Virus record (IMG/VR): IMGVR_UViG_3300033141_002732
Strand: one strand, 5' to 3'
DNA from: a virus
Lineage: Duplodnaviria; Heunggongvirae; Uroviricota; Caudoviricetes
DNA length: 64,000 nucleotides
Part shown: one piece after another, positions 39-46,936 of the stretch
Numbering within the stretch: the first letter of the stretch is position 1
Layout: each line of letters starts with the position of its first letter
The notes under the pieces: generated by a model
Database searches by the model: none
The model's input: only the letters and a program-made list of their open reading frames with translations
What the model was told of the DNA's origin: nothing
Made by a program: the position numbers and the translations under genes

Positions 39-953
39 TTATAACAAAAACACATCGTCTTGTTTCTCTTCTTTTTTCTTATCTATAATTTTTGATTTAA
101 TTTTTGATCCATCTTTATCACAAAACTTTTTATATAAACAATATTTACATTGTTTTGTAGTAAACCCAATAGGTTCAGGAACTTCTTTTGTTCTTATACT
201 ATTTTGAAGGAGAGTTGATCTTTCTAGAAAGGATTTAGCTAATTCACTATTAAATTTAATATCAAATGCAACCACTTTTCTTAGATTTCGAAACACATAT
301 ATAATAGTAACATTTTCAATATTATAATTATATTCATTATTCAAAATATAAACATATATAATAGCTTGAAAATAATGTTCTTTATCATAATTATTTTTAA
401 ATCTATTATCATCAACACTTTTTATCTCATAAAGAAACTTATCCTTAATTGCATCAACTCGTCCTTTAACTTTATATATTTCACTAACAACTGTTTTTTC
501 AATCTCAGAAAAATTATAAATATCTTGAATTATATTATGTATTTCATTACCAACTTTTTGCATCATATATAAATATGAAAATTGATATTGTTTCTTTATA
601 TCTACTGGATATTTTAATCTTTTATAATAACTTTCTCTTATACATGAACATAATTCAGTAACAGAGATATATGGTCTTTCATAGCTCTGTATTCTCTTAT
701 GATCATCTATTAATCTAGCTCTCATAAGAGATTCAAACAAATTTACATTAAAACCAACAGAAGAATTATTTCTATAATTATTAATGTCAGCATGAATATC
801 AAAAAATTCTTCTGGAATACTATTTTTTTCTTGCTTAATCTCAACAACTTTTTCTTTTTTCTTTAAATTTTTCGAAATATCTATAACTGTATTACTATTA
901 GGTTTCTGACTTTCTAAATATGAAAGAAGTTCTTTATATTCATTACTTTGCAC
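39..953 (-). CDS. Cas4/RecB-like PD-(D/E)xK nuclease with C-terminal Cys cluster
   Basis: Motifs 'KGRVDAIKDKFLYEIKS' (D...E.K core), N-terminal Cys ('LCSC'), and C-terminal 'CKYCLYKKFC' (C-x2-C-x5-C) typical of Fe-S Cas4-like exonucleases. Confidence 0.45.
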   Translation of the reverse strand: MQSNEYKELLSYLESQKPNSNTVIDISKNLKKKEKVVEIKQEKNSIPEEFFDIHADINNYRNNSSVGFNVNLFESLMRARLIDDHKRIQSYERPYISVTELCSCIRESYYKRLKYPVDIKKQYQFSYLYMMQKVGNEIHNIIQDIYNFSEIEKTVVSEIYKVKGRVDAIKDKFLYEIKSVDDNRFKNNYDKEHYFQAIIYVYILNNEYNYNIENVTIIYVFRNLRKVVAFDIKFNSELAKSFLERSTLLQNSIRTKEVPEPIGFTTKQCKYCLYKKFCDKDGSKIKSKIIDKKKEEKQDDVFLL

Positions 954-1920: not shown

Positions 1921-3210
1921 TTATATAATTTCAGGATCGTATTTCTCTTTAATATCTCTTTGAATAGCATCTTTTGTAAGTTCATCAAAAGCATCTTTAA
2001 AAGTTTCATCAGTTCTATATAAAGAATGTGCATCTTTAGTTCGAAAACTTTTATTTGGTAAATTTATTAAATGACACCATGCAGCTGAATTTATTCTTTT
2101 AGTTTCTTTCAAAAATTCATAATTTGTCCAAAAATTAGAAAAACCTCTAACGAAATCTCCAATAATTTTTACTTCAATATTTGGAGTAAATAGTTTATTT
2201 TTAACCATATTAACTCCAACAAGTATACCATCAAAACCATATGTCTCAGATTTCAATATTCCTCTGATTTTCATTTCAGCTAAATGAAATGAATTATATC
2301 GAAGAATATTTCCACCACCCATTGTTTTACCACTTGATAAAAACCTAAGATCTTTAACCCCAGAAAATGGTCCTATATTAACATCATCTCTTAATTGTTG
2401 AACAGCAATTAAACTGATATTATAATGTCCAAGTTTTGTAATATATTTAGGTAATAACAAAGAAAGTAATTTTGCTTTGTATCCAATTACAGAATTCGGA
2501 TCATCTGCTTCTCTTTCTTTTTGTGATAAAGTATTTGCAATTGAATCCCATATAACAACAGATGGAACGTCAACCATTTTCTTTTGTTCTTTAAATAAAC
2601 ATAACCCCTCTAAAAATTGGAAAACTTTCTCTACAGTAATATCAGTATATGGTTTAATTTTTGGATATCTAACTCCAAGATTTGAAAGTCTAATTGTGGT
2701 TGTAGCTTCTTCAGAATCTAAAAATGCAGAAATTGATTTTCCTTTATATTTTAATTGACTCTGTCCTAAAGTTTGAATTGCTAACATAGACTTTCCACTT
2801 CCAGCTTGACCAACAACTATATTAAATGCTCCAACCGCAAAACCACCACCTAATATAGCATCTAATACATCAATTCCTGTAGGAACAGTCTGTTTTACTC
2901 CAAGATCTTGAACTAAAGTAGTTTTCTTTTCTATAAATGAATTAAATTCAGCATATAAATCATTACTTTCTTTATTTACTTCATCTTTAATTTTATTATC
3001 TTCAACATTCAGATTTTGTTTTTCTTCTTCATTATTTATCTCAACTTTTTCAATCTCTTCTTCATTATCATCTTTTAATTTTATAGAATCCATTACTTCA
3101 TCAACATCTAGATTTGGAAACTCCTTATCATTATTTTCTACAACATTTTTATCTTCTTCAATTATTGAATCACTAGTTTCATTTTGTTCTTCTTGAATGA
3201 TATCTTCCAT
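1921..3210 (-). CDS. RecA-family recombinase (UvsX/RadA-like) with acidic N-terminal extension
   Basis: Walker A 'VVGQAGSGKSMLA', 'FLDSEEA' and 'VVIWDSIA' (Walker B-like) in RecA-fold order. The first ~110 aa are acidic and low-complexity. Confidence 0.6.
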   Translation of the reverse strand: MEDIIQEEQNETSDSIIEEDKNVVENNDKEFPNLDVDEVMDSIKLKDDNEEEIEKVEINNEEEKQNLNVEDNKIKDEVNKESNDLYAEFNSFIEKKTTLVQDLGVKQTVPTGIDVLDAILGGGFAVGAFNIVVGQAGSGKSMLAIQTLGQSQLKYKGKSISAFLDSEEATTTIRLSNLGVRYPKIKPYTDITVEKVFQFLEGLCLFKEQKKMVDVPSVVIWDSIANTLSQKEREADDPNSVIGYKAKLLSLLLPKYITKLGHYNISLIAVQQLRDDVNIGPFSGVKDLRFLSSGKTMGGGNILRYNSFHLAEMKIRGILKSETYGFDGILVGVNMVKNKLFTPNIEVKIIGDFVRGFSNFWTNYEFLKETKRINSAAWCHLINLPNKSFRTKDAHSLYRTDETFKDAFDELTKDAIQRDIKEKYDPEII

Positions 3211-3660: not shown

Positions 3661-3867
3661 TTACTCCATAATAACTTTCATTTTTCCAGTAACATCAAGT
3701 GAATTTCTTAAATATCCAGTATTTATAAAACTACCATCTTCTTTTATAAAATTACATTTAAATTCAGTATTTCTATTTGGATTAGTTCCTTGACAAAAAT
3801 CTATACCATCTCTTACATAAGGACAATTAGCAGAATATTTACAAACTTGACCAGGTTTTAATAACAT
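3661..3867 (-). CDS. small Cys-containing hypothetical protein
   Basis: 68-aa ORF packed between neighbours. Confidence 0.3.
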   Translation of the reverse strand: MLLKPGQVCKYSANCPYVRDGIDFCQGTNPNRNTEFKCNFIKEDGSFINTGYLRNSLDVTGKMKVIME

Positions 3868-4177: not shown

Positions 4178-5056
4178 TTAACAAATTCTATTAGCTAAAT
4201 TTCCAGTGTTACATTCATCTTTATGTCCGTACTTGTAATGACATTCTTTACAAACAGAAATTCCAAAGTCTGGATCTAATGAGAAAAATGGTTCTAATTT
4301 TTGTGGACGAGTATGATGAACATGTTCTGCTTTTTCTCCACAATAAACACACTTATAATCATCTCGTTTTAGAACAATTTCTCTAAATGTTTGATATTCT
4401 TCTTGATTATATTGAAAACCACTCCCTTTATAAGTTCCCTGTTTTATTTCTACTTCTTTTATTAATTGTGATACTTTTTTACCATAAAGAGGACAAATAT
4501 TTTTACATTCTTTTGAACAATAGAAATTCGATTCACCAAATCCTTTTGGTTTTTCAATAGCTCTTATTCTAGCACTTATTTGATCATTAGTTGGAGTAAA
4601 CCAACCACCTTGTTCTTTCGAATTAAGACAATTATGATTTTTACAATGTACTTGTATTTCTTTTTCTCCAGGTTTATCTGGATTATATCTCATTTCTTCT
4701 ATTTTAGAAAAAAATGGATATTTTTCTCGAATCATTTCAATTGTAAATTTATTTGGTCCCTGTCTTCCTTTACAACTCTTAACTAATTTTTTGGAATACT
4801 TTTGAATTCTTATATCGTTTTCTTTATTTAAACCCTTATTCCATGGTTTCTTACCAAACATTGGATTTGATATTCCAATATTCTTATTTCTTAATCTTTT
4901 AATTGTTTCTTTCGAATGTTTTCTATTTACAGAAGATATTCTAAATTTTTCTCGATTAACTGGACAACTTTGCCAATTCTTTTCACAACAATATTTTTTA
5001 ATATGTTTAAGAAAATATTTTCCTTCTCTTCCACAACCATAATAACATAATTGCAT
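4178..5056 (-). CDS. HNH homing endonuclease with NUMOD3-like repeats
   Basis: C-terminal 'CVYCGEKAEHVHHTRPQ...CKECHYKYGHKDEC' HNH/zinc motif, repeated 'NxGxxxxGKKxWNKG' NUMOD-like segments. Starts 2 nt after the RNR stop. Confidence 0.7.
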   Translation of the reverse strand: MQLCYYGCGREGKYFLKHIKKYCCEKNWQSCPVNREKFRISSVNRKHSKETIKRLRNKNIGISNPMFGKKPWNKGLNKENDIRIQKYSKKLVKSCKGRQGPNKFTIEMIREKYPFFSKIEEMRYNPDKPGEKEIQVHCKNHNCLNSKEQGGWFTPTNDQISARIRAIEKPKGFGESNFYCSKECKNICPLYGKKVSQLIKEVEIKQGTYKGSGFQYNQEEYQTFREIVLKRDDYKCVYCGEKAEHVHHTRPQKLEPFFSLDPDFGISVCKECHYKYGHKDECNTGNLANRIC

Positions 5057-5058
5057 AT

Positions 5059-6795
5059 TTATATCTCACAAGAACCATTAGCACATTTATAATCATCTTC
5101 TTGTCTTTTGCCAAAAACTTCAGAACTATTTGTAGTAAGCTCAAAAGAAACTTCTTCTGAAGTAAGTCTATTTAATATCTGATTATCTCTACTTCCATCT
5201 ACATAAACAGTAACACCTTTTAAATCTTTTATATATTCTAATAAAAGATTATCTAACTCTTGTACAGTTGTATCTTTAGGAAGGTTAATCGTCTTCGATA
5301 CAGCGCCATCAACATATTTTTGAACTATAGATTGAACTTCAAAATGATCTTGCGGTTTAATATCAAAAGAATCTACAAACCATTCTGGAATTTCTTGTCC
5401 ATTTTCAATACATTCTCTATATAAATCATGAATATAAACTCTAGAACTAACTTCATCATCTCTTCTATATGCTTTAGAAAATAAAGGCTCAATTCCACTT
5501 GTAACATCTGCTAATAAAGAGATAGTTCCAGTTGGAGCAATAGCCATACCTGTAACACATCTAACTCCTTTTTTCTTAATATCCATTCTTAATGGAGCTG
5601 GAAGTTTTCTTATAAAAGAAGCTTTTAAATATTGAATTGAATCAAATTTAGGAAAAGCACCTTTTTCTACAGATAATTCAACTAGAGATTCATAAACATT
5701 ATCTCTAATAAATTTCATTAATTTCTCAATTTCAATAATTGATCTTTCAGACCCATATTGAACTTGTTTTGCAAATAAATATTCAGCTAAACCCATAACA
5801 CCAATTCCAATTCTTCTTGAAGTATGAGCTTTTATATCAATTTCTTTTAAAACATATTTATTTACATCTATAACATTATCTAGAAATCTTACTGCAAGTT
5901 TAATTGTTTGACTTAATTTTCTCCAGTTAGTATTTACATTACCCGTAATAAAATTGGGTAAAACAAGAGACCCCAAATCACATACATCATGTGGTGAAAG
6001 TATCGCTTCTCCACATGGATTGGTAGAAACAACTGGATCATAATAATAAGAATTATTTTTTAATAAATTTGTAAAATTTAACAAACCAGGTTCAGCACAT
6101 AATACCATATTTTTAAGAATTTTATTCCATATATCTCTTGCTTTTACTTTTTCATAACTTCTTTGTTTAAATTTAAATTCCCAATCAGAATCCATTTCAA
6201 CACATTCTAAAAATTTATTAGTTATACCAGCTGAAATATTATAGCAATTCAATTTTCCATGAACTAATTTTGAATCTATAAAATTAAGAATTTCTGGATG
6301 AGTTATATCAACACAAGCTAAAGCTGCAGCTCTCCTACTTCCACCACTTTCAATTGTTTCTGCCACAAAATTAGATGCTTCTAAAAAACTAACGAGTCCA
6401 GAAGATGTTCCTCCTTTTCCAAGTATCTCATCACCTTTTGGTCTAAGAGATGAAAAATTTACTCCAACTCCTCCTCCTTCAGACCATAAAATCAAAGCGT
6501 CTTTTATAAATTGTCCTATCTCTTCAATTGAATCTCCAATAGGTAAAACATAACAATTAAATAAAGAACCTCTTGGTCTTCCAGAATTTCTAATAATTCT
6601 GCCACCCGGAAGAAAATCCATATTGTAAATCATCTCATGAAATTTCTTTGTATACTCTGATCTTTTACCAGATTCTGCTTGAGCAACAATATCTGAAACT
6701 CTATATGTAGCAGATTCCCAATTTTCACCATCCAAAAAATATCTTTTTCTTGCTACTTCAAAAGCATTACCTGATAACATAACTTTTTTTGTCAT
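5059..6795 (-). CDS. ribonucleotide reductase catalytic subunit (likely class II, cobalamin-dependent NrdJ-like)
   Basis: Active-site 'TNPCGEA' plus radical-Cys region. 578 aa with no NrdB partner visible, so class II is favoured. Confidence 0.7.
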   Translation of the reverse strand: MTKKVMLSGNAFEVARKRYFLDGENWESATYRVSDIVAQAESGKRSEYTKKFHEMIYNMDFLPGGRIIRNSGRPRGSLFNCYVLPIGDSIEEIGQFIKDALILWSEGGGVGVNFSSLRPKGDEILGKGGTSSGLVSFLEASNFVAETIESGGSRRAAALACVDITHPEILNFIDSKLVHGKLNCYNISAGITNKFLECVEMDSDWEFKFKQRSYEKVKARDIWNKILKNMVLCAEPGLLNFTNLLKNNSYYYDPVVSTNPCGEAILSPHDVCDLGSLVLPNFITGNVNTNWRKLSQTIKLAVRFLDNVIDVNKYVLKEIDIKAHTSRRIGIGVMGLAEYLFAKQVQYGSERSIIEIEKLMKFIRDNVYESLVELSVEKGAFPKFDSIQYLKASFIRKLPAPLRMDIKKKGVRCVTGMAIAPTGTISLLADVTSGIEPLFSKAYRRDDEVSSRVYIHDLYRECIENGQEIPEWFVDSFDIKPQDHFEVQSIVQKYVDGAVSKTINLPKDTTVQELDNLLLEYIKDLKGVTVYVDGSRDNQILNRLTSEEVSFELTTNSSEVFGKRQEDDYKCANGSCEI

Positions 6796-6811: not shown

Positions 6812-7666
6812 TTAATAATCTGTAGTAATTGTTAAATGAAATGGATTAGAACATTCTTTTCTTCTAGACCATAACCACATATCAATATTTGCAATTGACA
6901 TTTTTGTATTTTCTTGTATTTTTTTACAAACTAATATAGTTGCTGATCTAATTTCAGCTTCCATTAATGAACCTTTTTCTATTAGCTCAAAATTTCTTAT
7001 TTTATTTTCTAACCCATAGGAATATGAAATACACCCATAATTTTTAAGAACACGAGGAAGTTGATAATCTGCAGGAACAAATACATTATTTAAATAATTA
7101 TGAAAACAACCAAATTTTCTATTCATTGTGAGAAAAAACAGAGAAGCTCGTTTTAAGAATATGTCTGAAGCATATCCCGGGAAAAATCTAATTAGTTCTT
7201 GTAATGGAGGTTCATATCCATTTTGTAGATGACGTAAAAATATACTAGAAAAGTCAAACCATAATTCATTAACTTCTTTTAAATGTTTTATTCTATCTTC
7301 TAAAAGTGGAAATCTATAAATAATTAATTGATCAATAAAATGATCTAAAAATTCTAAATCACCACCTAATTTAAGATTTTCATAAAATGTTTTATCCAAT
7401 AATTCATACATTTTCATTGCTGAAGAATTTCCAGGTCTAAAATATGGAGAAGCATACCAATAACAATAGTTTATAGAATTAGCAACAAGTTCAAAAGTTA
7501 TCTCATCAATAGTAGGTTCTAAAACTTTAAAAGAATTATTATTCTCAATATTCTGTAATATAATATTAGATAATATTTCAACATTTTCATAATGAATATT
7601 AACATATTTTGGATTTTTCATAAAATAATTTACTGCATCAAAAACACCTTTCCATATATCATCCAT
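6812..7666 (-). CDS. hypothetical protein
   Basis: 284-aa ORF, no confident motif. Confidence 0.4.
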   Translation of the reverse strand: MDDIWKGVFDAVNYFMKNPKYVNIHYENVEILSNIILQNIENNNSFKVLEPTIDEITFELVANSINYCYWYASPYFRPGNSSAMKMYELLDKTFYENLKLGGDLEFLDHFIDQLIIYRFPLLEDRIKHLKEVNELWFDFSSIFLRHLQNGYEPPLQELIRFFPGYASDIFLKRASLFFLTMNRKFGCFHNYLNNVFVPADYQLPRVLKNYGCISYSYGLENKIRNFELIEKGSLMEAEIRSATILVCKKIQENTKMSIANIDMWLWSRRKECSNPFHLTITTDY

Positions 7667-7696
7667 TTAATTCTCCCTTCAATTTCAAAAAAAAAA

Positions 7697-8038
7697 TTAT
7701 ATTAATTCTTCTAATTCTTTTTCTGCTTCATCTTCAGCATTTTCATGTTGGGAATCCAACATTTCTAATAATTCTTCAAATTCTCCAAAATGAACTTTTT
7801 CTTCATAAGCAACATCTAATAATACTTCTTTTACTCGATCATTTGTTGCTATTTGAGCCATTCTCTCATATAAATTTACTGCATCAGTTTCTGCAATAAT
7901 TGCTAATCTTAATAACTGAATATCTTTATAATCACCTGAAGTTTTTTCTATATCATTTAACTTCATAAATAGTTCTGTTAAAATTTTTCCTTTATTTTCT
8001 TTTGTTTCTTGTAATTTATTTAAATAATATTTCAGCAT
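7697..8038 (-). CDS. ferritin-like / rubrerythrin-like diiron protein
   Basis: 'AIIAETDAVNLYERMA...AYEEKVHFGEFEELL' fits the ferritin-like E...EE..H helix-pair pattern. Confidence 0.45.
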   Translation of the reverse strand: MLKYYLNKLQETKENKGKILTELFMKLNDIEKTSGDYKDIQLLRLAIIAETDAVNLYERMAQIATNDRVKEVLLDVAYEEKVHFGEFEELLEMLDSQHENAEDEAEKELEELI

Positions 8039-8040
8039 CT

Positions 8041-8454
8041 TTATTTTTCCTCTTTAGATTTAAATAACATATAATGTTGTTCTTTATAATCAGCAGTTTT
8101 TCTTCTAGTTACTGCTACATTAATAAAATGATATCTTCCTTTAATTTTCTTTCCAAAAAAATCTATAACAATATGTGCATTTGTATATTGTTCAATTTCA
8201 CAAGAACCAATGTCAAATTTTTTAAGAGTTCCAGCACCATAACCAGATTCAATTTTTCCAACAAATAATGCTTCTTTTTCACTATGATCATGAGTTCTAA
8301 TTGCTAAAACTCTTTCACCACTTTTTAATGGAACCCCTTTTCTAATTGCAAATGAAGCCCAATTATTTGAATTTGGAATCCGAAACCTTAGATCTTGATG
8401 CTTCTTAGCTTTTTTTGCATCATGATCAATAACTATAAATTTAGAAGTTGTCAT
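8041..8454 (-). CDS. LigD-type 3'-phosphoesterase (PE) domain protein
   Basis: 'FIVIDHDAKKAKKHQDLRFRI', 'SFAIRKGVPL', 'HDHSEKEALFVGKIESGYGAGTL' and 'GKKIKGRYHFINV' align with the LigD_N consensus (FVVQkHhArrlHYDlRLE / SWAvPKGPS / EDHPleY..FEG.IP.GeYGaGtV / GeKLkGrw.L). Confidence 0.65.
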   Translation of the reverse strand: MTTSKFIVIDHDAKKAKKHQDLRFRIPNSNNWASFAIRKGVPLKSGERVLAIRTHDHSEKEALFVGKIESGYGAGTLKKFDIGSCEIEQYTNAHIVIDFFGKKIKGRYHFINVAVTRRKTADYKEQHYMLFKSKEEK

Positions 8455-18938: not shown

Positions 18939-19877
18939 GTGAAAATAGCAAGTGAAAGAAGCATGAACTGGATTATATCTCCTCTAAAAAAATATGGAAA
19001 TATTATACAATTACCTTTTGAATTTAAAAAATACCATCCATTTAAATCTATTAAACCATATTTAATTATGTATGGATTTTGGGATATTGATTGTTTTAAT
19101 ATGATGGATGTAATATCAAATGAATTCTTAAATCAATATTTCTCTAAAAAAAATGGAGGTTATATACCAAAAAATCCATACGAAGCATTACATATAAATG
19201 AACAATTAAATTTAAATAAAGATGATTTATTTAATATAAATAATGATATATTAAATAAAAAAAAGAAAATTACAAGAATAAAAATATCTGATTTTGAAAT
19301 AAAAAAATATTCTTTTTTTAATCATTTATCTTCTAATAAAATATTTGATATCATGAATAAAATAATGAATTGTAAATTTCAACTTGTTTATGGAGTTCGA
19401 AATTTTTTATTTTTACAAAATAAAAAAATTAAAACAAATTATATAAATTTTAATAATCTGCCAGAAAGTAGATATAAAAACCCTGACCAATTTTGTTTGA
19501 TAAAAATAAATAAAGAACATCAAAAAGCAAATAAACAAATATATGAAAGAGAATATTTAATTGAATTTAAAACTCCATTATCTTTTTTATTTATTAGGAA
19601 TCTTATTTTAATAAATATTGATTGGATTCCTGAAGAAGTTTATTTAATAAAATATAAACCTGCTCAATATCTATATAGATTTTTCTTCACTCATAATAAT
19701 AAGAAAAAAATTAAATTAAACTTGAATGATATAAAATTTCGACTAAATTTGAAAAATAGTAATATTAATCAAATTAGAAATTTAGTTTTAAAATCTATTG
19801 AAGAATTAAAAAATATAGGTATAGTAAAAAAATTTGATTTCATAAATGATAAAAATATACATGTTGAAAATGTATGA
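18939..19877 (+). CDS. hypothetical protein (GTG start)
   Basis: 312-aa ORF beginning with GTG immediately after the previous stop. Confidence 0.4.
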   Translation: MKIASERSMNWIISPLKKYGNIIQLPFEFKKYHPFKSIKPYLIMYGFWDIDCFNMMDVISNEFLNQYFSKKNGGYIPKNPYEALHINEQLNLNKDDLFNINNDILNKKKKITRIKISDFEIKKYSFFNHLSSNKIFDIMNKIMNCKFQLVYGVRNFLFLQNKKIKTNYINFNNLPESRYKNPDQFCLIKINKEHQKANKQIYEREYLIEFKTPLSFLFIRNLILINIDWIPEEVYLIKYKPAQYLYRFFFTHNNKKKIKLNLNDIKFRLNLKNSNINQIRNLVLKSIEELKNIGIVKKFDFINDKNIHVENV

Positions 19878-19960
19878 AATTGTCAACAAAATGTATAGAA
19901 TGCATATAAAAATGTATAAAACGCATATAAAAATGTATAAAACGCATATAAAAATGTATT
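19868..19960. repeat. phased direct repeats, 21-bp period ('aaaatgtata' core; 'gcatataaaaatgtataaaac' x3)
   Basis: 'aaaatgtat' recurs at 19868, 19889, 19910, 19931 and 19952, exactly 21 bp apart. Confidence 0.6.
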
Positions 19961-27342: not shown

Positions 27343-28620
27343 ATGGATATAAAGCAAGAACTTAGTGAATTACAGGAAATGATGAAAATAAAAGGTGTTA
27401 ATTTTAAACCTATATCAGATTCTGATTTCAGAAAGTTTAAAATAAATCCATCTGAAATTAAAAAAGTATCTACAATAGAAGAATTAAGAAATGGAACTCC
27501 AAATATGATTGTTACTGAATCTGTGGCTAATACAACATTTATTCAAAATAATTTTAAGAAACAGAATTTAATAAAGAAGAAAAAATATGTTATGTCTTTG
27601 GGTGTTTATAGTCAACTACATTATGAAATAAATAGAGATGTAAGAATTTTAAAACCTACAAAACCGTTATTTAAGAATATATATAAACCATATTTGGGAC
27701 AAAATCTAAATGGGAAAACGTTATTAGTATGGAGAACTGGAGGAATTGGAGATCTTTTATTTATTAATCCAAACTTAAGATTTTTAAAAGAGAAATATCC
27801 AGATTGTACAATAAAATTTGCTTGTGGACCACAATATCAATCAATGGTTGAAACTTGGGATTTTGTTGATAAAGTCTTAGATTTACCATTTAATATTCAA
27901 CAAGTTATAATGGCTGATTATCATGCTATGTTTGAAGGAGTTATAGAAAGATGTGAAGCAGCTGAAAAAGAAAATGCTTATCGTTTATTTACAAAATGGC
28001 TTAATATTAATTTACCTGATGAATTATTAATACCAAAACAAGAACCAAGAGAAGATAAAGTAAAAGAATGTTATGAAATATTAGATAGAGAATGGGGTTT
28101 AAAAGGAAATGATTTTATATTATTACAACTTAGAGCAAGTTCTCCAATAAGAACTCCAAGACCTGAATTTTCTCAAAATTTAATAAATTTATTAACAGAT
28201 AGAGGACATAATGTTGTTATTACTGATGGTCCACATAAATATCAAGCTATTGAAGATTTAGTTATGAATTTTGTAAAAGATAAAAATAAAGTATTTAATT
28301 TTGCAAATTTTTCAAAAACTTTAGATTATACAATTGCTTTAACTTCATTAGCAAAAGTTGTTGTATCTACAGATTCTGCTCTTATACATGTTGCTCAATC
28401 TTTAGGAATTCCAGCATTTGGAATTTATGGTCCTTTTCTTGGAAGAATTCGTCTTGAAACGTATAAAAATGTTGATTGGATAGATGCACCAAAAAATTGC
28501 TGCCCATGTTTTCTTCATGGACATATGCCTTGCAAACATTCAAAAGATAATTATCCAACCTGTTTTGATACAATAGATTTAAGAGATGTAGTTAATCGAG
28601 TGGAGAAATTAATGATATGA
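27343..28620 (+). CDS. GT9-family (heptosyltransferase-like) glycosyltransferase
   Basis: 'LLVWRTGGIGDLLFINPNLRFLKEKYP' and C-terminal 'STDSALIHVAQSLGIPAFGIYGPF' match GT9 motifs. Confidence 0.6.
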   Translation: MDIKQELSELQEMMKIKGVNFKPISDSDFRKFKINPSEIKKVSTIEELRNGTPNMIVTESVANTTFIQNNFKKQNLIKKKKYVMSLGVYSQLHYEINRDVRILKPTKPLFKNIYKPYLGQNLNGKTLLVWRTGGIGDLLFINPNLRFLKEKYPDCTIKFACGPQYQSMVETWDFVDKVLDLPFNIQQVIMADYHAMFEGVIERCEAAEKENAYRLFTKWLNINLPDELLIPKQEPREDKVKECYEILDREWGLKGNDFILLQLRASSPIRTPRPEFSQNLINLLTDRGHNVVITDGPHKYQAIEDLVMNFVKDKNKVFNFANFSKTLDYTIALTSLAKVVVSTDSALIHVAQSLGIPAFGIYGPFLGRIRLETYKNVDWIDAPKNCCPCFLHGHMPCKHSKDNYPTCFDTIDLRDVVNRVEKLMI

Positions 28621-29424
28621 TTTTATGTGATTATGGTTGTGGAAGAGAAGCAAAATATCAATTTAAAAATGGGAAATGGTGTTGTGAAAATCATTATAGT
28701 AAATGTCTAAAAGTAAGAGAAAAAAGTAGTAAATCACATAAAGGACAAATACCTTGGATAAAAGGTCGAAATCATTCAGAATTAAGTAAAAAGAAAATAA
28801 GTGATAATAATAAAGGAAAAAAAACATTCAGAAAAAACTAAAAGAAAAATATCTAAATCTAATAAAGGATTAACTAAACTTAATATTGAACAAATAAAGA
28901 AAAGATATCCTTTCTTTTCTAAAATAGAAGAAATGAGATATAATCCAAATAAACCTGGAGAAAAAGAAATACAAGTACACTGTAAAAACCATAATTGTCC
29001 TAATTCGAAAGAGATGAATGGTTGGTTTACTCCAACATATAATCAAATACATGAAAGAATAATGGAGATTGAAAAAGACTGGGGAAATGATGGTAAATAT
29101 ATGTATTGTTCAGATGATTGTAAAAAAGAATGTCCTCTATATCATATGAAAACATGTTTATTAAAAAAAGATCAAGAAAATCTTTTTCCATATACTATAG
29201 AAGAATATCAAATATTTAGAGAAGAAGTTCTAAAACGAGATGATTATAAATGTGTTTATTGTGGAGAAAAAGCAGAACATGTTCATCATATTCGTCCGCA
29301 AAAACTAGAACCATTTTTTGCTTTGGATCCAGATTTTGGAATTTCTGTTTGTAAAAAATGTCATTACAAGTACGGACATAAAGATGAATGTAACACTGGA
29401 AACTTAGCTAATAGAATTTGTTAG
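28617..29424 (+). pseudogene. HNH homing endonuclease, second copy, interrupted by +1 frameshift in an A8 run
   Basis: ORFs 28617..28841 and 28801..29424 together parallel the 4178..5056 protein. The frame breaks at A8 (28817-28824) inside a NUMOD3-like 'KGKKHSEKTKRKIS' motif. Confidence 0.55.
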
Positions 29425-30254
29425 GAGAGAAGATGATTAAAATTATGATGACTGTAAGAAATAGATTGAGTATTACAAAGAAAGCAATTTCGGCACTTTT
29501 TCTTCATACAAAAACTCCGTACCAATTATATATTTATGATAACCTTACTGATTTTAGATTAGATGATCATTTCAATTACTTTTATAAATTATATAACCGA
29601 GGAGAAATAACTCAGGTTACATTTAATACTGCTGATTCAACATTTAAAGCATTTTCTAAAGCATCTGCTTGTAATGCTTTTGGTGCACAACATGAACAAG
29701 ATCCAGAAAAAGATAATTATGATTTTCTATTATTTTTAGATAATGATATTATTGTTACTCCTGAATGGGATTTAAGAATATTAAAAGCTTGGAGACAAGT
29801 TAAAAAATTTGGATTAAAAAATATAAAAGCAATATCTCAAAGACCTGGCGGCATTAAAGAAGTTATTGAATATGATAAACCAATTGCTGGTACAAAAGCT
29901 ATTATTGGAAAATTAGGAGGTAGTGGTTTTTGGAGTGTTAAACCTGATTTTTTTAGAGATGTTGGATTTTTAGATTTAAAAAAATTAATTGGTAGAAATA
30001 AGATGCATGATCAATTATATTGGAGAATGATGGATATTTCTACTCAAGGTAAAAAATATATTATGGGTTTGGGTTGTAAATTAGCAATTCATTGTGGACA
30101 TGTTTCTGGATCTATTTGTAATATTTTAGATAAACGTCCTGATGCTTTATATAAAATTAAATTTGAAGAAGCGGAAATAAATATAGATAAAATGTCATTT
30201 GAAGAATTTTATAATTCTATAGTAAATAATAAATTTTTAATAAAAGATTGGTAA
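29418..30254 (+). CDS. GT2-like glycosyltransferase (tentative)
   Basis: N-terminal 'IMMTVRNRLSITKKAISAL...YIYDN' and 'LFLDNDIIVTPEWD' resemble GT2 fold motifs. Confidence 0.4.
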   Translation: MLGEKMIKIMMTVRNRLSITKKAISALFLHTKTPYQLYIYDNLTDFRLDDHFNYFYKLYNRGEITQVTFNTADSTFKAFSKASACNAFGAQHEQDPEKDNYDFLLFLDNDIIVTPEWDLRILKAWRQVKKFGLKNIKAISQRPGGIKEVIEYDKPIAGTKAIIGKLGGSGFWSVKPDFFRDVGFLDLKKLIGRNKMHDQLYWRMMDISTQGKKYIMGLGCKLAIHCGHVSGSICNILDKRPDALYKIKFEEAEINIDKMSFEEFYNSIVNNKFLIKDW

Positions 30255-36696: not shown

Positions 36697-37542
36697 TTGA
36701 TAATGAATGAAAATGAAAAAATTAAAGTATATTCTGTATCTGTAATAATGGAACATCTAGATAAGTGTATACAAAATAAAGATCCATTTTCTTTAATTAG
36801 ATTTGGAGATGGAGGACTTAAATTTATTCATTCATTAGTGTTTAATGATGATAGACAATTAGAAATAATTTTGAGAAAAGAAGGAATTCCTAGAAGTAAT
36901 ATGATAGAGATCTTTGAAAAATGGGGATATTATGTTAGAAAAGCAGATTATATAGATACTCCACAAGTTTATTTTTCTAAGACATTTTGGCCTCGTTATA
37001 GAAAAAATTTTAAACCTATGAATCCTTCAACTATTTCAAAATTAAAAAATTGGAAAGATTTATATAATAGAGCTGAATTTGATAATGATAATTATTGTAA
37101 TCCAGAGATTAATTATTTATCTATAATTAAAAGAGAAAATAAAGTTAATCTTTTTGATGTAATGAAAAGCAGAAAAATATGTTGTATTACTGCAGTTCCA
37201 GAATGTATGGATAGTTTTATAAATTTAGAAGTTGATATTGTTCAAATAGTAAAACAATATCAAAATCATTATTTAAATTCATATCATGATGTAGTTAGAA
37301 TAATAAAAAAAGCTGCAACCAACTATGATTTATGGTTAGTTGCAGCTGGAGAAATTGGAAGAATATATAGTGGATTAATTAAAGAATATGGTGGTAGATC
37401 TTTTGATATTGGATTTGTTGCGGAATATTGGAAAGATTATGATATACCTATTAGATTAAGTTATTTTTTAAAACCAGATTATAAAAATAAAACACAACTT
37501 ATATTTACAAAATTAGGAGAACCTTATGAGGAGTTAATATAG
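36697..37542 (+). CDS. paralog family A member 1 (possible GT-D/DUF1792-like glycosyltransferase)
   Basis: N-terminal 'DPFSLIRFGDGG', C-terminal 'LWLVAAGEIGRIYSGLIKEYGGRSFDIGFV..YW'. Confidence 0.45.
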   Translation: MIMNENEKIKVYSVSVIMEHLDKCIQNKDPFSLIRFGDGGLKFIHSLVFNDDRQLEIILRKEGIPRSNMIEIFEKWGYYVRKADYIDTPQVYFSKTFWPRYRKNFKPMNPSTISKLKNWKDLYNRAEFDNDNYCNPEINYLSIIKRENKVNLFDVMKSRKICCITAVPECMDSFINLEVDIVQIVKQYQNHYLNSYHDVVRIIKKAATNYDLWLVAAGEIGRIYSGLIKEYGGRSFDIGFVAEYWKDYDIPIRLSYFLKPDYKNKTQLIFTKLGEPYEELI

Positions 37543-37544
37543 AA

Positions 37545-38444
37545 ATGAATCTTATAATTCCAGTTGAGTCGATTTTTCAAAATAAAGGTGGAGTGATATT
37601 ATATAATCCATATAAAAATAAAATTATTGATTATTATATTCATGATAGAAAATGGAGGAGAGTTGGTTGGAGAGGTGGAATTTTATATAATGATTATTTA
37701 ATAGCTACTGATTGGAATGAATTACATTATTTCAATATAAAAAAATGGAAGTATGAATATACATTTAGAAAAAAGAGTTTTAATGATCTTCATTATGTAC
37801 AAGTTAACAAAAATAAATTATTTGTTGTTAATACAGGTATTGATGCAATAGAAATATTTAATAATCCAATGGAACCAAAATTTGAAAGAATTGAATTTGT
37901 ATTTAAATTAAATAAAATGTTTAAAGATAGATATATTGATTTAAATAGAAAATATAATAAAATGTATAAAATAAAACCACATTCATGTCACCCTAATTGT
38001 ATATCTTTTAATGAACATGGAACTTATATTACATGTTTTCAAAGACAACAAAAAATAAATACAGGTCAATTAATTGATATGAAAAGTGGTAAAAAATTGT
38101 TTCATAGAAATATGGATTGTCATGATGGATTATTTTATAAAAATGATTTTTATTTAACAAAAACTAGACAATCAAAAATTTTGAAATTTAAAAATCTGAG
38201 ACCTGTGAAAAATAATATACCAGACGAAATTATTGATATTGGTCATAAAGGTTGGTGGCGAGGTATGGTTATTCATAATGATATAATATTTATTTTTTGT
38301 AGCAGAGGTTATTCTAATAAAAAATCTAAAGCAATTATGGCTATGATAGATTTACAAACACAACATACTACTTTTAAGAAACTTCCAGTGTGTGGTGATA
38401 TACATTGGGATACAATTTATCAACCAAATGTTTTTGAGGGATAA
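37545..38444 (+). CDS. hypothetical protein
   Basis: 299-aa ORF between family-A paralogs. Confidence 0.4.
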   Translation: MNLIIPVESIFQNKGGVILYNPYKNKIIDYYIHDRKWRRVGWRGGILYNDYLIATDWNELHYFNIKKWKYEYTFRKKSFNDLHYVQVNKNKLFVVNTGIDAIEIFNNPMEPKFERIEFVFKLNKMFKDRYIDLNRKYNKMYKIKPHSCHPNCISFNEHGTYITCFQRQQKINTGQLIDMKSGKKLFHRNMDCHDGLFYKNDFYLTKTRQSKILKFKNLRPVKNNIPDEIIDIGHKGWWRGMVIHNDIIFIFCSRGYSNKKSKAIMAMIDLQTQHTTFKKLPVCGDIHWDTIYQPNVFEG

Positions 38445-39233
38445 ATGTTATATAATCTTAATCATATTTTAAAAGATATTGAATATCATTTAAATAATAA
38501 AAAACCATTCTCTTTAGTTCGATTAGGAGATGGAGATATTAAATTATTACATTCAGCATGTCAAGGAATTGTTCATAATGATAAATTTAGAAGACAAGGA
38601 ATCCCAGGAAGTGATTTAAATATAGTTATTCAAATATATAGAAAAAGTTGTAATAATGCTAATTATATTTCTTCTTTTGATGTATATTTTGATGGTAATT
38701 TTTGGTCAAGAAAAAGTTCTTCTGGAACTAGAAAAAAGTTAGAAAGCTGGAAAAAAATTTATAAAAAAATTGGAATTCAAAATCAAAGTTATTGCAATCC
38801 AGAAATTGGTTTTCTTTTGTTTTTAAGATCTAAATATAATTTATTTAACTTAATTAAAGATAAAAAAATATGTCTTATTACTTGTTTTAAGTCTATTGAG
38901 TTAAAATTACGAAAACTTAATTATGATGTGAATACTATATTAATTCCAAAAATATATTCAAATCATTATTCTAAATACAAACCAAATAAATTATTGATAA
39001 AAAGTTCTATTGAGAAAAATGATATATTTTTAATTGGAGCTGGAGGACTCGGAAAAGGTTATTCAAAAGTTATTAAAAGAAATGGTGGGATAGCAATTGA
39101 TATTGGTCAAGTTTTTAATTCATGGGCTGGAAGTGTAATACCTCCTAGAATTTCAAAGTATATGAAATTAAATGAAAAAGATTTGACATTTAGATTTACA
39201 AAAATTGGAGAAAAATTTAGAGAATGGATATAA
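38445..39233 (+). CDS. paralog family A member 2
   Basis: 'KPFSLVRLGDGD', 'IFLIGAGGLGKGYSKVIKRNGGIAIDIGQVFNSWAG'. Confidence 0.45.
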   Translation: MLYNLNHILKDIEYHLNNKKPFSLVRLGDGDIKLLHSACQGIVHNDKFRRQGIPGSDLNIVIQIYRKSCNNANYISSFDVYFDGNFWSRKSSSGTRKKLESWKKIYKKIGIQNQSYCNPEIGFLLFLRSKYNLFNLIKDKKICLITCFKSIELKLRKLNYDVNTILIPKIYSNHYSKYKPNKLLIKSSIEKNDIFLIGAGGLGKGYSKVIKRNGGIAIDIGQVFNSWAGSVIPPRISKYMKLNEKDLTFRFTKIGEKFREWI

Positions 39234-39460
39234 AGAATATTCCAGAAGGTTATTATGTTTGTCCACAATGTAATGGAACTGGTTCTGATTATACTGAAAT
39301 TAGAGAAAATAAAAAATATTCTAGAATTTGTGATAAATGTAATGGTGGTGGAATAATAGATTGGATTACAATGATATTACCTTGTAAACATAATATGTCA
39401 ACTATACGAGAGTATAAACTTACTTTTATACATAACAAAAAAAGAAGGAGAAAAAAATGA
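39224..39460 (+). CDS. small DnaJ-type zinc-finger-like protein
   Basis: 'CPQCNGTGSD...CDKCNGGGII' CxxCxGxG repeats. Confidence 0.35.
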   Translation: MDIKNIPEGYYVCPQCNGTGSDYTEIRENKKYSRICDKCNGGGIIDWITMILPCKHNMSTIREYKLTFIHNKKRRRKK

Positions 39461-40590
39461 AAACAATATTAGTAACAGGCGCTGATGGTTATTGCGGTTG
39501 GCCAACGATTTTAAGATTATTATCAGAAATTCCTATGTGTAAAGTTATAGGAGTTGATAACCAGTCAAGAAGAGAATGGGTTAAAGAAATTGGTTCTGAT
39601 AGTGTAATACCAATTTATAATTTATATGAAAGGTCTAAATTAGTTGATAAAGATAAACTTGAAGTTTTTAAAAATTGTGATTTAACTGATTATAATATTG
39701 TAAATGATTTATTTACAAAATATAAACCAGATATTGTTCTGCATCTTGCTTCACAACCTTCTGCCCCATATTCTCATATTGATATTGAACATTGTAACTT
39801 TACACAACATAATAATCTTCAAATGTTAAGAAATATATTATGGTCTTTAAATAACAATAAAATGGATCGTACTCATTTGGTTGTTACAACAACAACTGGA
39901 ATATATGGCGCGCCTTCATTTAGAATTCCAGAAGGAAATTTAGACATTGTTGATAAATTATTACCATATCCATCAATGGGTGGAAGCTGGTACCATATGA
40001 GTAGAGCACATGATGCAGCAAATTTATGGTTAGCAAATAAACAATTTAATTTTCCTATAACTGAAATGAGAACTTCTATTGTTGTGGGAAGTTCAACTCG
40101 TGAAACGAGAGTAGATCCAATTTTAGCAACAAGAACTGATGTAGATTTTTATTTTGGAGTTGTTACAAATAGATTTGTTGCTATGGCTTTGAAGAATGAA
40201 CCGCTTACAATATATGGAAAAGGTTTACAAGGGAAACCTATGATTTCTTTGGAAGATATGGTTAAATCTATGGTTGATATTTGTAAAGTTGATCCAACTA
40301 GTAGAGAAAATAAATATGAAATATATAACCAAATGGAAAAAGTAGTTCCTATAGTTGATATTGCACAAACTATTAAAGCTACAATGAATATAATGTTTGG
40401 ATTGAATGTCGAAATAAAACATATTCCAAATCCTAGAATTGAAGATGAATCTCATCATATGGAAATGGATAATTTTAAATTTAAGAAATTAATAGGTGGT
40501 AAATTTATTTGTCCTATAGAACAAGCAGTTTCTCAAATGTGTTCAGATTTGTACAAATATAAAGATAGAATAGGAAAGTTTAGTAATTAA
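39457..40590 (+). CDS. NAD-dependent sugar-nucleotide epimerase/dehydratase, SQD1 (UDP-sulfoquinovose synthase)-like
   Basis: N-terminal 'ILVTGADGYCGWPTILRL' resembles the SQD1 'GGDGYCGW' Rossmann motif; 'YHMSRAHD' YxxxK-like region. Confidence 0.55.
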   Translation: MKTILVTGADGYCGWPTILRLLSEIPMCKVIGVDNQSRREWVKEIGSDSVIPIYNLYERSKLVDKDKLEVFKNCDLTDYNIVNDLFTKYKPDIVLHLASQPSAPYSHIDIEHCNFTQHNNLQMLRNILWSLNNNKMDRTHLVVTTTTGIYGAPSFRIPEGNLDIVDKLLPYPSMGGSWYHMSRAHDAANLWLANKQFNFPITEMRTSIVVGSSTRETRVDPILATRTDVDFYFGVVTNRFVAMALKNEPLTIYGKGLQGKPMISLEDMVKSMVDICKVDPTSRENKYEIYNQMEKVVPIVDIAQTIKATMNIMFGLNVEIKHIPNPRIEDESHHMEMDNFKFKKLIGGKFICPIEQAVSQMCSDLYKYKDRIGKFSN

Positions 40591-40607
40591 AAAGGAGATA
40601 TAGAATT

Positions 40608-42112: not shown

Positions 42113-42325
42113 AGTGAATTAAAGTGAGGTGAAAAATTTGAAAGAAATAAAATTTTTATTAAAACATTTATATACAACAGCATTAGTTTCTTCATGATGG
42201 TTATATGTATATATTCCTAATAATTATTCTTTATCTTTATCAACAATTTTTAGTGTAATTACTATTATTTTAGCATGTTGGTATTTAGTTTATCATTGGG
42301 ATGATTGTTAGAAAGGATTTTTGAT

Positions 42326-42568
42326 ATGATGAGAAAAAATGGGTTATTAGATTTTGTTATGGGAGTATTATATGCTACTATATTATGGGCACATTTTACT
42401 TTTAAATTGGAGTGGTTGCTTCCTTTTATTTTAATTAGTACTATTGCTACAGTAATTATGTTTGTAGTAAGATCATTTTTACAAAAGGAAAAAAGAAATC
42501 ATAATAAAACAAATAAAAAAAGTTCTTTAGAAGAAGTAACTAATGTAAAAATAGGACCTTTAGGATAG
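42326..42568 (+). CDS. small membrane protein
   Basis: Two TM helices; start moved to the ATG at 42326 (the ORF-track start is TTG). Confidence 0.35.
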   Translation: MMRKNGLLDFVMGVLYATILWAHFTFKLEWLLPFILISTIATVIMFVVRSFLQKEKRNHNKTNKKSSLEEVTNVKIGPLG

Positions 42569-42582
42569 AAGGGAGTTTTCTA

Positions 42583-46934: not shown

Positions 46935-46936
46935 AT

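What the first reader, a model, noticed from the sequence alone, without database searches (positions are those of the whole stretch)
4178..5056. HNH homing endonuclease inserted directly after the RNR gene, with a second inverted copy 24 kb away
The HNH/NUMOD gene starts 2 nt after the ribonucleotide reductase stop, a classic homing-endonuclease target neighbourhood. A second copy at 28617-29424 shares about 90% nucleotide identity over its 3' ~230 nt and a central ~100 nt ('ttttctaaaatagaagaaatgagatataatcca...') but is in the opposite orientation. The result is a long inverted repeat spanning the replication module and the start of the glycan island. It is a potential substrate for inversion or recombination.
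Basis: seen in the sequence. Interest (0 to 1): 0.55.

Follow-up and report, generated by a model that had tools for sequence, protein, structure and literature searches.

The report
Selfish nuclease genes scattered in a phage
The two similar genes are members of a multi-copy family of selfish HNH "homing" nuclease genes that insert right behind conserved genes of an uncultured large phage; this is a well-known kind of element, one copy is broken by a frameshift, and nothing indicates that the pair flips the DNA between them.

Summary
Copy A (4178-5056, minus strand, 292 aa) starts 2 nt after the stop of a class II ribonucleotide reductase (RNR) gene. Copy B (28617-29424, plus strand) is inverted. 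The two share 253 nt at 90%, a central 107 nt at 94%, and about 70% over the whole gene.

Both genes encode an N-terminal zinc-ribbon-like motif, NUMOD3 repeats, a Cys/His-rich central domain and a C-terminal HNH nuclease. Related phages have the same two junctions either empty or occupied, with exact ORF-sized boundaries. That is the signature of free-standing homing endonuclease genes, analogous to T4 mobE after nrdA.

Three corrections apply.
- Copy B is split into 74-aa and 207-aa ORFs by a +1 frame change in an A8 run (28817-28824). The split ORF products are on record on all four contigs carrying this phage.
- The source genome has at least five paralogues, not two. Two more lie 2.3-5.6 kb left of the window.
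- The central DNA identity is family-wide (A versus a copy in another phage: 94%), so it reflects protein constraint plus AT-rich codons. The paralogues are mosaics.

No inversion was seen: all four contigs and all relatives keep the same arrangement. This is a new member of a known kind, of modest interest.

The parts
5059..6795 (-). Class II-type ribonucleotide reductase gene (578 aa). This is the conserved gene after whose stop codon copy A sits.
   Evidence: Pfam Ribonuc_red_lgC E=1.3e-97 and lgN. The conserved 3' end encoding CxNGSCE(I/L) is shared with relatives L036-L041.
4178..5056 (-). HNH copy A: an intact 292-aa free-standing HNH endonuclease gene. Approximate layout: zinc-ribbon-like motif plus NUMOD3 region (5056-4721), Cys/His-rich central domain (4759-4457), HNH domain (4441-4181).
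   Evidence: ORF. NUMOD3 E=7.6e-6. PHROG HNH families E=7e-12. PDB 5h0m HNH by sequence and by fold. Model pLDDT 80.5. Invariant Cys/His residues across 56 homologues.
28617..29424 (+). HNH copy B: a paralogue of A in inverted orientation, interrupted by a frame change. ORF1 is 28617-28841 (74 aa, NUMOD3). ORF2 is 28801-29424 (207 aa, central domain plus HNH).
   Evidence: Removing one A restores a 268-aa protein that aligns over the full length with its paralogues.
28817..28824 (+). A8 homopolymer run where the reading frame of copy B shifts by +1. It lies inside a Lys-rich NUMOD3 repeat.
   Evidence: Sequence and reconstruction. A second assembly (63,823-bp contig) is identical over 6.6 kb including this run. 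The split product P0016 is on record on 4 contigs.
4179..4431 (.). Inverted-repeat arm 1a (3' HNH-coding end of copy A). It pairs with 29171-29423.
   Evidence: 253 nt, 90%. dS 0.23 and dN 0.053 over the HNH segment.
29171..29423 (.). Inverted-repeat arm 1b (3' HNH-coding end of copy B).
   Evidence: The longest exact matches of 46 and 40 nt lie here.
4550..4759 (.). Inverted-repeat arm 2a (central-domain coding region of copy A). It pairs with 28867-29076.
   Evidence: 210 nt, 82%. The 107-nt core is 94.4% identical. The same core is 82-95% identical across most copies compared.
28867..29076 (.). Inverted-repeat arm 2b (central-domain coding region of copy B).
27343..28620 (+). GT9-like glycosyltransferase gene (425 aa). 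Its stop overlaps the start of copy B.
   Evidence: Pfam Glyco_transf_9 E=1.4e-8. The homologue in L047 is followed directly by the next gene (empty site). The homologue in L005 is followed by an HNH family member.
29433..30254 (+). 273-aa gene downstream of copy B. It is the conserved right-hand neighbour of the GT9 insertion site.
   Evidence: Homologues sit directly after GT9 in L047 and after the HNH gene in L005. A GGAGAG ribosome-binding motif precedes the ATG at 29433.
3661..3867 (-). g68 small Cys-rich gene. It is the conserved downstream neighbour of the RNR gene in relatives.
   Evidence: In L036 the RNR stop is followed after 12 nt by the g68 homologue, which is the empty site.
1921..3210 (-). 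UvsX/RecA-like recombinase. This is the phage's own homologous-recombination enzyme, which homing by double-strand-break repair or any repeat recombination would need.
   Evidence: PHROG UvsX-like recombinase E=3.6e-40. Pfam RecA_N on record.

Best explanation
Copies A and B are two members of a dispersed family of at least five free-standing HNH homing endonuclease genes in an uncultured, very AT-rich (24% GC) phage. The longest contig carrying it is about 152 kb, and its replication genes are T4-like.

Each gene is a self-contained ORF wedged exactly between two tightly packed genes. It lies in the same orientation as its neighbours, and no promoter-like excess or clear ribosome-binding site was found upstream.

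Inferred mechanism, by analogy with T4 mobE and the seg genes: during mixed infection the nuclease is made from the host operon's transcript. Its variable NUMOD3 array and zinc-binding modules recognise the conserved gene junction in a phage that lacks the insert. The HNH domain nicks or cuts there. Repair by the phage's UvsX-like recombinase then copies the nuclease gene and its flanks into the cut genome.

Copy A, after the RNR gene, looks functional. Copy B, after a GT9-like glycosyltransferase gene, carries a +1 frame change in an A8 run. It is most likely a recently inactivated copy, which is the expected degeneration phase of the homing cycle.

The inverted repeat is a by-product of two paralogues sitting in oppositely transcribed gene blocks. 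Its high-identity stretches are the most constrained protein segments, encoded with AT-biased codons, with some exchange among paralogues added on top.

Shown: domain content, exact insertion boundaries, empty and occupied sites, copy number, the frameshift, and the mosaic identity pattern.
Inferred: cleavage specificity, homing itself, co-transcription, and inactivity of copy B.
For: - Domains: NUMOD3 in both copies and Pfam HNH in copy B. PHROG HNH endonuclease families E about 1e-11 in both. HNH of phage GVE2 (5h0m) is the best hit by sequence and by fold, followed by Cas5-HNH, McrA and IscB HNH domains. BFVD gives phage HNH endonucleases. The Zn-binding Cys and the HNH His residues are invariant in 56 homologues and present in both copies.
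- RNR site, empty versus occupied. L036: RNR, 12 nt, g68. L037 and L038: RNR stop, then the intergenic motif ACTCTAGACGCAGAG. L039: RNR, ATGA overlap, a 316-aa family member, then the same motif.
- GT9 site. L047: GT9 then the next gene by ATGA overlap. L005 and the window: GT9, HNH gene, next gene.
- In 23 loci the HNH ORF starts within -32 to +29 nt of the upstream gene's stop in all but one. Upstream genes include the large terminase, a helicase, an RNA-polymerase-like protein, glycosyltransferases and RNR.
- L012 has a copy between the Q_salvage gene and the RNR gene.
- Multi-copy: 5 copies in the source genome and 4 in a 223-kb contig.
- Mosaic paralogues. Copy B's N-terminus is closest to P0002 and P0004 (83-85%), its central region to P0004 (92%), and its HNH region to A (92%).
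- Literature. T4 mobE lies after nrdA and is co-transcribed with it (PMC2790892). RNR genes are a hot spot (PMC3653736). Homing endonuclease genes cluster near RNR and terminase genes and swap domains (PMC10448857).
- A UvsX-like recombinase is present.
Against: - No biochemical or genetic evidence of cleavage or homing exists for any member of this family.
- HNH genes at the same site in different phages are not each other's closest relatives (A versus L039 40%; B versus L005 54%). Site occupancy could therefore reflect old insertions and losses rather than ongoing site-specific homing.
- No relative close enough to show flanking co-conversion tracts was found.
- Copy A could be domesticated for some other role.
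- The domain order (DNA-binding part first, HNH last) differs from characterised HNH homing enzymes such as I-HmuI and MobE.
- The frame change in copy B could be bypassed by transcriptional slippage, so 'inactive' is not proven.
Confidence: 0.8

Rival explanations
1. The two copies act as the arms of an invertible segment. Homologous recombination between them flips the 24-kb replication block, giving two genome isomers in the population.
For: - The arms are real: 253 nt at 90%, with exact runs of 46 and 40 nt.
- The phage encodes a UvsX-like recombinase.
- The arms lie on either side of the strand-switch and GC-skew minimum near 18-20 kb. An inversion would therefore keep every gene co-oriented with its block (inference).
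Against: - All four contigs carrying the exact RNR, A, B-ORF2 and downstream 273-aa proteins show the same neighbourhood.
- One 63.8-kb contig from another sample is base-for-base identical to the window over 6.6-6.9 kb around each copy, with both copies in the window's relative orientation and spacing.
- No protein more than 61% identical to A, as an A/B chimera would be, exists in the 5.8-billion-protein set.
- Relatives keep RNR beside g68-g141-recombinase, as in the window.
- The repeat boundaries coincide with the ORFs, and the identity profile follows protein conservation.
- Other paralogues are equally similar to A.
Confidence: 0.05
2. The genes are domesticated HNH nucleases that serve the phage, for example in degrading host or competitor DNA, in exclusion of co-infecting phages, or in DNA processing. 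They no longer home.
For: - Purifying selection acts on the HNH and central domains (dN/dS about 0.1-0.3).
- The best solved-structure match is the terminase-associated HNH of phage GVE2.
- The literature warns that homing cannot be inferred from sequence alone (PMC10448857).
Against: - Presence/absence occurs at exact junctions in related phages.
- Copy number and position vary between phages.
- One copy is frameshifted.
- None of the window copies lies near packaging genes.
- Purifying selection is also expected for actively homing genes.
Confidence: 0.12
3. Copy B is not a pseudogene. The A8 run is either a sequencing or assembly error, or a slippery site. In the second case RNA-polymerase slippage (loss of one A) or +1 ribosomal frameshifting would yield a small amount of full-length nuclease, as a way of throttling a toxic enzyme.
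For: - The frame change sits exactly in a homopolymer.
- Everything downstream is intact, with all catalytic residues and low dN.
- Homing endonuclease genes are typically expressed at very low levels (mobE terminator, PMC2790892).
Against: - The same split ORFs are on record on all four contigs, and one was checked base for base. This argues against random error, although systematic homopolymer error cannot be excluded.
- A8 is short for efficient slippage (from general knowledge, not tested here).
- No other family member examined shows the same arrangement.
- Lys-rich NUMOD3 repeats in a 24%-GC genome make A-runs a plain mutational hot spot.
Confidence: 0.15

Closest known systems
Phage T4 MobE (free-standing HNH homing endonuclease between nrdA and nrdB)
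   Same: - It is a stand-alone HNH nuclease gene placed directly after a ribonucleotide reductase gene.
- It has no promoter of its own and is co-transcribed with the upstream gene.
- It is present in some related phages and absent in others, and it is one of many such genes in the genome (PMC2790892, PMC2988022).
- Copy A has the same placement: 2 nt after the RNR stop, with no promoter-like excess upstream.
   Different: [quoted passage not shown] Here the HNH (PF01844 type) is C-terminal, preceded by NUMOD3 repeats and a family-specific Cys/His domain.
- The RNR here is a single-gene class II enzyme, not nrdA/nrdB.
- tblastn found no similarity to any of 50,697 deposited phage genomes.
I-HmuI / NUMOD-containing HNH homing endonucleases of Bacillus phages
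   Same: An HNH catalytic domain combined with NUMOD-type DNA-binding repeats. The architecture is modular, with one end binding DNA and the other cutting it.
   Different: I-HmuI is intron-encoded, with the HNH at the N-terminus (from general knowledge). The present genes are free-standing, have the reverse domain order, and have an extra conserved central domain with no Pfam or PDB match.
Homing-endonuclease-rich phages (T4 with 15, Pectobacterium phage CB7 with 23, Vibrio phage ICP1) and 'HEG islands'
   Same: - Many paralogous nuclease genes per genome, sitting next to essential genes such as RNR, terminase, polymerase and helicase.
- Evidence of domain swapping between paralogues (PMC7344957, PMC10448857).
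   Different: The protein family differs. Exchange of the DNA lying between two nuclease genes, the 'island' idea, was not demonstrated here.

Membership tests
Free-standing HNH homing endonuclease genes | HNH (beta-beta-alpha-metal) nuclease domain with catalytic His and zinc-binding Cys residues | tested here: met
   Pfam HNH in copy B. PHROG HNH families E about 1e-11 in both copies. 5h0m by sequence and fold. CxxC...HxHH...CxxCH is invariant or nearly so in 56 homologues and intact in both copies.
Free-standing HNH homing endonuclease genes | Separate DNA-binding module(s) attached to the nuclease | tested here: met
   NUMOD3 above the Pfam cut-off in A and in B-ORF1. The number of NUMOD3 repeats varies among paralogues.
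Free-standing HNH homing endonuclease genes | Own ORF between genes, not inside an intron or intein, without disrupting the neighbours | tested here: met
   The RNR gene is intact (Pfam coverage 80-531 of 578). Copy A starts 2 nt after its stop, and copy B overlaps the GT9 stop by ATGA. The same tight packing occurs in 22 of 23 related loci.
Free-standing HNH homing endonuclease genes | Sporadic presence or absence at the same site among related genomes, with exact boundaries | tested here: met
   RNR site: empty in L036, L037 and L038, occupied in L039 and the window. GT9 site: empty in L047, occupied in L005 and the window.
Free-standing HNH homing endonuclease genes | Site-specific cutting of the allele lacking the gene, and biased inheritance in mixed infection | not testable with these tools
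   This needs enzyme assays and phage crosses. The host and the phage are uncultured.
T4 Mob-type HNH endonucleases | N-terminal HNH-3 domain followed by a C-terminal zinc finger | tested here: not met
   The HNH domain is at residues about 206-283 of 292, at the C-terminus, and matches PF01844-type profiles. There is no HNH_3 hit.
Terminase-associated HNH nucleases (HK97 gp74 / GVE2 type) | Small HNH protein encoded next to the terminase and portal genes, acting in DNA packaging | tested here: not met
   The neighbours are RNR and a glycosyltransferase. The proteins are 268-392 aa with DNA-binding repeats. The resemblance to 5h0m is limited to the HNH fold.
Programmed invertible DNA segments (Gin/Cin/Hin type) | Short non-coding or gene-end crossover sites in inverted orientation flanking a segment that exists in both orientations | tested here: not met
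   The arms are whole paralogous ORFs with protein-shaped identity profiles. Only one orientation is seen in 4 of 4 contigs.
Programmed invertible DNA segments (Gin/Cin/Hin type) | A site-specific invertase gene next to the segment | not tested
   The ORFs adjacent to both copies were profiled and none is a recombinase of that type. The whole window was not scanned for one.
McrA-type modification-dependent restriction enzymes (the name JGI gives some homologues) | N-terminal modified-cytosine-binding domain plus C-terminal HNH | tested here: not met
   Only the HNH fold matches 6ghc (E=0.1). The N-terminal part is NUMOD3 repeats.

The most novel reading that the evidence does not exclude
The family may be a previously uncharacterised architecture of homing endonuclease: a zinc ribbon, an expandable NUMOD3 array, a new Cys/His domain and a C-terminal HNH. 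Target choice would be re-programmed by gain, loss or exchange of NUMOD3 repeats among paralogues.

The oppositely oriented copies A and B would then mark the ends of a 24-kb 'island' holding the replication genes. That island could be swapped as a block between phages or occasionally inverted. The A8 run in copy B might additionally act as a slippage throttle rather than a lesion.
Probability: 0.1. Interest if true: 0.55.

Novelty: new member of a known kind. Interest (0 to 1): 0.3.

Why it matters
It adds little conceptually. Free-standing HNH homing endonuclease genes next to ribonucleotide reductase genes, in many copies per phage genome, are textbook (T4 mobE).

What is mildly useful:
- The family is large: 980 hits with E <= 0.001 among the candidates scored, all from metagenomes.
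- It has no tblastn match in 50,697 deposited phage genomes.
- It carries a conserved roughly 100-aa Cys/His domain with no Pfam or solved-structure match.
- It offers clean natural empty/occupied site pairs that would allow target-site prediction.

For annotation, copy B should be marked as frameshifted. The inverted repeat should not be read as an invertible-segment system.

Tried and rejected
- DNA (blastn) and protein (tblastn) searches of the HNH region against deposited phage genomes gave no match. No annotated relative could therefore be used.
- The first search for relatives of the GT9 gene in viral contigs found none. It worked only after building a two-sequence alignment with the L005 neighbour.
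- A direct search for the predicted inversion junction (A-specific 26-mer, gap, B's downstream flank) in metagenome contigs found nothing. The parental control pattern also found nothing, so that collection evidently lacks the source contigs and the test is void. It is not used as evidence.
- Promoter- and terminator-like scans around both copies gave counts within the range of shuffled sequence. The single terminator-like hits are on the wrong strand. No regulatory claim is made.
- I tested whether copies at the same site in different phages are each other's closest relatives. They are not, so I do not claim site-specific orthology.
- I rejected recent duplication of A and B as the source of the central identity, because copies from other phages are as similar or more so.

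Full report

Yes. ORF listing shows an intact 292-aa ORF at 4178..5056 on the minus strand. It lies directly downstream of a 578-aa ORF at 5059..6795. That upstream ORF is a ribonucleotide reductase (RNR; Pfam barrel domain E=1.3e-97).

The sequence reads ...GAG ATA TAA AT ATG CAA..., so the gap between the RNR stop and the next start is 2 nt.

The second copy lies at 28617..29424 on the plus strand. Its ATG overlaps the TGA of a GT9-like glycosyltransferase gene (27343..28620).

The repeat finder reports three inverted arms:
- 4179-4431 / 29171-29423: 253 nt, 90%
- 4550-4759 / 28867-29076: 210 nt, 82%
- 4988-5058 / 28615-28685: 71 nt, 76%

From the pairwise alignment, the last 229 nt are 92.1% identical. 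A central 107 nt is 94.4% identical, including a 65-nt stretch with one mismatch. The whole gene is 69.6% identical when gaps are counted. Random identity at this base composition is about 32%. Similarity ends at the ORF boundaries.

**2.

(a) Copy B is not one ORF. It is 28617..28841 (74 aa) plus 28801..29424 (207 aa), the second in the +1 frame.
- The switch lies in an A8 run at 28817-28824, inside a Lys-rich NUMOD3 repeat.
- Deleting one A gives a 268-aa protein that aligns end to end with its paralogues.
- A 63,823-bp contig from another sample is identical to the window over 6.6 kb, including this run.
- The 207-aa product is on record on four contigs, all with the same neighbours.

(b) The source phage has at least five paralogues. 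Its longest contig on record is 151,964 bp.
- Besides A and B there are P0002 (319 aa) and P0008 (340 aa). They lie about 2.3-3.3 kb and 4.6-5.6 kb left of the window's first base, on the same strand as A.
- P0004 (392 aa) sits after an amidase gene elsewhere.

**3. What the genes encode**

- Both copies have NUMOD3 DNA-binding repeats above Pfam's cut-off. Copy B's second ORF also hits Pfam HNH.
- Both hit several PHROG 'HNH endonuclease' families at E about 1e-11 over the last 80 residues or so.
- The best solved-structure match by sequence and by fold is the HNH nuclease of phage GVE2 (5h0m). It is followed by the HNH domains of Cas5-HNH, McrA and IscB. Predicted viral structures give phage HNH endonucleases.
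- The AlphaFold model (pLDDT 80.5) shows a beads-on-a-string protein. The order is an N-terminal zinc-ribbon-like hairpin, helical NUMOD3 units, a central domain and the C-terminal HNH.
- In an alignment of 56 homologues, the Cys and His residues of all three Cys-rich parts are invariant or nearly so. Both window copies keep them.

**4. Are they mobile?**

The comparative evidence is strong. Nine viral contigs carry RNR genes 55-68% identical to the window's. Five of these (L036-L039, L041) share the window's downstream gene block, in full or in part: g68, g141, UvsX-like recombinase, KH protein, g188, g304.

At the RNR junction:
- In L036 the RNR stop is followed after 12 nt by g68.
- In L037 and L038 it is followed by a short intergenic motif (ACTCTAGACGCAGAG) and two accessory genes.
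- In L039 a 316-aa member of the same HNH family sits between the RNR stop (ATGA overlap) and that same motif.

At the GT9 junction:
- In L047 the GT9 homologue overlaps the next gene by ATGA.
- In L005, part of a 223-kb contig, and in the window, an HNH family member sits exactly between them.

Further observations:
- In the same 223-kb contig another copy sits between the Q_salvage gene and the RNR gene (L012).
- Across 23 loci the HNH ORF begins within -32 to +29 nt of the upstream gene's stop in all but one. The upstream genes include the large terminase, a helicase, an RNA-polymerase-like protein, glycosyltransferases and RNR.
- Several contigs carry 2-4 copies.
- In L042-L044 the RNR gene itself carries an intein, as does the neighbouring helicase. 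This underlines that the neighbourhood attracts selfish elements.

This matches the literature. T4 mobE lies directly after nrdA, lacks its own promoter, is co-transcribed with nrdA, and nicks the nrdB gene of phages lacking it (PMC2790892). RNR genes are the most frequently interrupted phage nucleotide-metabolism genes (PMC3653736). Homing endonuclease genes cluster near RNR and terminase genes (PMC10448857). Genomes with 15-23 such genes are known (PMC2790892, PMC7344957).

**5. What the DNA identity means**

I codon-aligned the five paralogues.

| Segment | A versus B | Other pairs within the genome |
|---|---|---|
| HNH segment, nt identity | 92% | 82-89% |
| HNH segment, dS / dN | 0.23 / 0.053 | dS 0.23-0.74 |
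| Central segment, nt identity | 84% | 81-92% (B closest to P0004, 92%) |
| N-terminal 40 codons, nt identity | 69% | B closest to P0002 and P0004 (83-85%); A divergent from all |

The paralogues are therefore mosaics. That fits domain exchange among homing endonuclease genes as described for other families (PMC10448857).

The 114-nt central core is 82-95% identical at the DNA level among most copies compared, including copies from different phages. A versus L001 is 94%, higher than A versus B at 90%. That stretch is explained by an almost invariant peptide (FSKIEEMRYNPDKPGEKEIQVHCKNHNC) written in AT-biased codons, not by recent duplication.

In the 174-nt HNH core, the paralogues of this genome are 82-92% identical to each other. 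Copies in most other phages are 67-80% identical to them. The exception is L003, from a sample with a neighbouring accession number, at 86-91%. A versus P0002 equals A versus B at 92%.

So the HNH ends of this genome's copies share more recent ancestry, or undergo some homogenisation. The A/B pair is not special.

**6. Inversion**

The ingredients exist. The longest exact matches are 46 and 40 nt, and the phage encodes a UvsX-like recombinase. The two copies also sit on opposite sides of the strand switch and cumulative GC-skew minimum at about 18-20 kb. An inversion would therefore keep genes co-oriented with their blocks (inference).

No evidence for inversion was found:
- All four contigs that carry the exact RNR, A, B-ORF2 and downstream 273-aa proteins show the same neighbourhoods.
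- No protein more than 61% identical to A other than A itself is in the 5.8-billion-protein set. An A/B chimera would be about 95% identical.
- All relatives keep RNR next to the g68-recombinase block.
- My junction-pattern search in metagenome contigs is void, because the parental control also found nothing.

Consensus assemblies cannot exclude minor isomers. Read-level data are needed.

**7. Mechanism**

Best-supported account (confidence about 0.8): these are free-standing HNH homing endonuclease genes.
- They appear to be expressed from the upstream gene's transcript. There is no promoter-like excess, the starts abut or overlap the preceding stop, and copy A has no clear ribosome-binding site.
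- The variable NUMOD3 array, together with the zinc-binding modules, would recognise the uninterrupted gene junction of a co-infecting relative.
- The HNH domain would nick or cut there.
- Recombinational repair would copy the gene in.

Copy A looks active. Copy B is most likely a recently inactivated copy, because dN/dS of about 0.2 over its HNH part shows that most of its history was under constraint. Cleavage, specificity and homing are inferred, not shown.

Rival explanations:
- Domesticated nuclease: about 0.12.
- Copy B's frameshift is an artefact or a slippage throttle: about 0.15. This is compatible with the main account.
- A functional invertible segment: about 0.05.

**8. Comparison and novelty**

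The genes work like T4 MobE but are not Mob-type proteins. The HNH is C-terminal and of the PF01844 type, not an N-terminal HNH-3. They are not I-HmuI-like in domain order either.

The family is large (980 hits with E <= 0.001 among the candidates scored) and purely metagenomic. Some sources label members 'McrA' or 'NUMOD3 domain-containing DNA-binding protein'. It has no tblastn match in 50,697 deposited phage genomes.

That makes it a new member of a well-known kind. Its one uncharacterised feature is the central Cys/His domain. Interest is modest (0.3).

Noticed in passing
window 19888-19959 (wider array 19861-19959): There are 3.4 tandem copies of a 21-nt unit (AAAATGTATAAAACGCATATA, 96% matches). 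They lie in the gene-poor stretch next to the switch from minus-strand to plus-strand genes and the cumulative GC-skew minimum (about 18-20 kb). They could be iterons of a replication origin or a promoter/operator array.
   Followed up: partly
window 37146-48867: Direct-repeat families D1-D4 have up to four copies, 42-300 nt long and 61-79% identical, spaced 1.7-5.4 kb apart. They indicate a set of paralogous genes in the plus-strand block downstream of copy B. The genes were not identified.
   Followed up: no
L042 3120-5978 and 5981-8437 (also L043, L044): In these related viral contigs the RNR gene is a 952-aa ORF with an intein of about 350 aa inserted just before the conserved NPCGE motif (CLSGDT...VVHN|C). 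The adjacent 818-aa helicase gene also carries an intein-like insert.
   Followed up: partly
L037 ~6735-6750, L038 ~6735-6750, L039 ~7700-7715: The conserved intergenic motif ACTCTAGACGCAGAG (a possible small hairpin, CTCT...AGAG) follows the RNR stop in L037 and L038. In L039 it follows the inserted HNH gene. It marks the exact right-hand boundary of the insertion.
   Followed up: partly
[not shown]
   Followed up: partly
L002 5995-6876 (protein P0006); protein P0007: Relatives show internal duplications. P0006 repeats the catalytic stretch KAEHVHHIRPQKLEPFFS twice in tandem. P0007 (381 aa) has two copies of the central domain. Both are signs of slippage or recombination within these genes.
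   Followed up: no
window 6812-8454: Upstream of the RNR gene lie a Q_salvage-family gene (queuosine salvage, 284 aa), a rubrerythrin-like gene (113 aa) and a LigD_N-like gene (137 aa). This is an unusual accessory set for a phage nucleotide-metabolism block (precomputed Pfam).
   Followed up: no
window 57827-57905: A single tRNA-Arg(TCT) gene. It reads AGA, the Arg codon expected to be favoured in a 24%-GC genome.
   Followed up: no
window 39-953: A Cas4-like gene (PHROG 'CRISPR/Cas system associated', E=5e-28) closes the recombinase block. It is conserved in relatives L036-L041.
   Followed up: no
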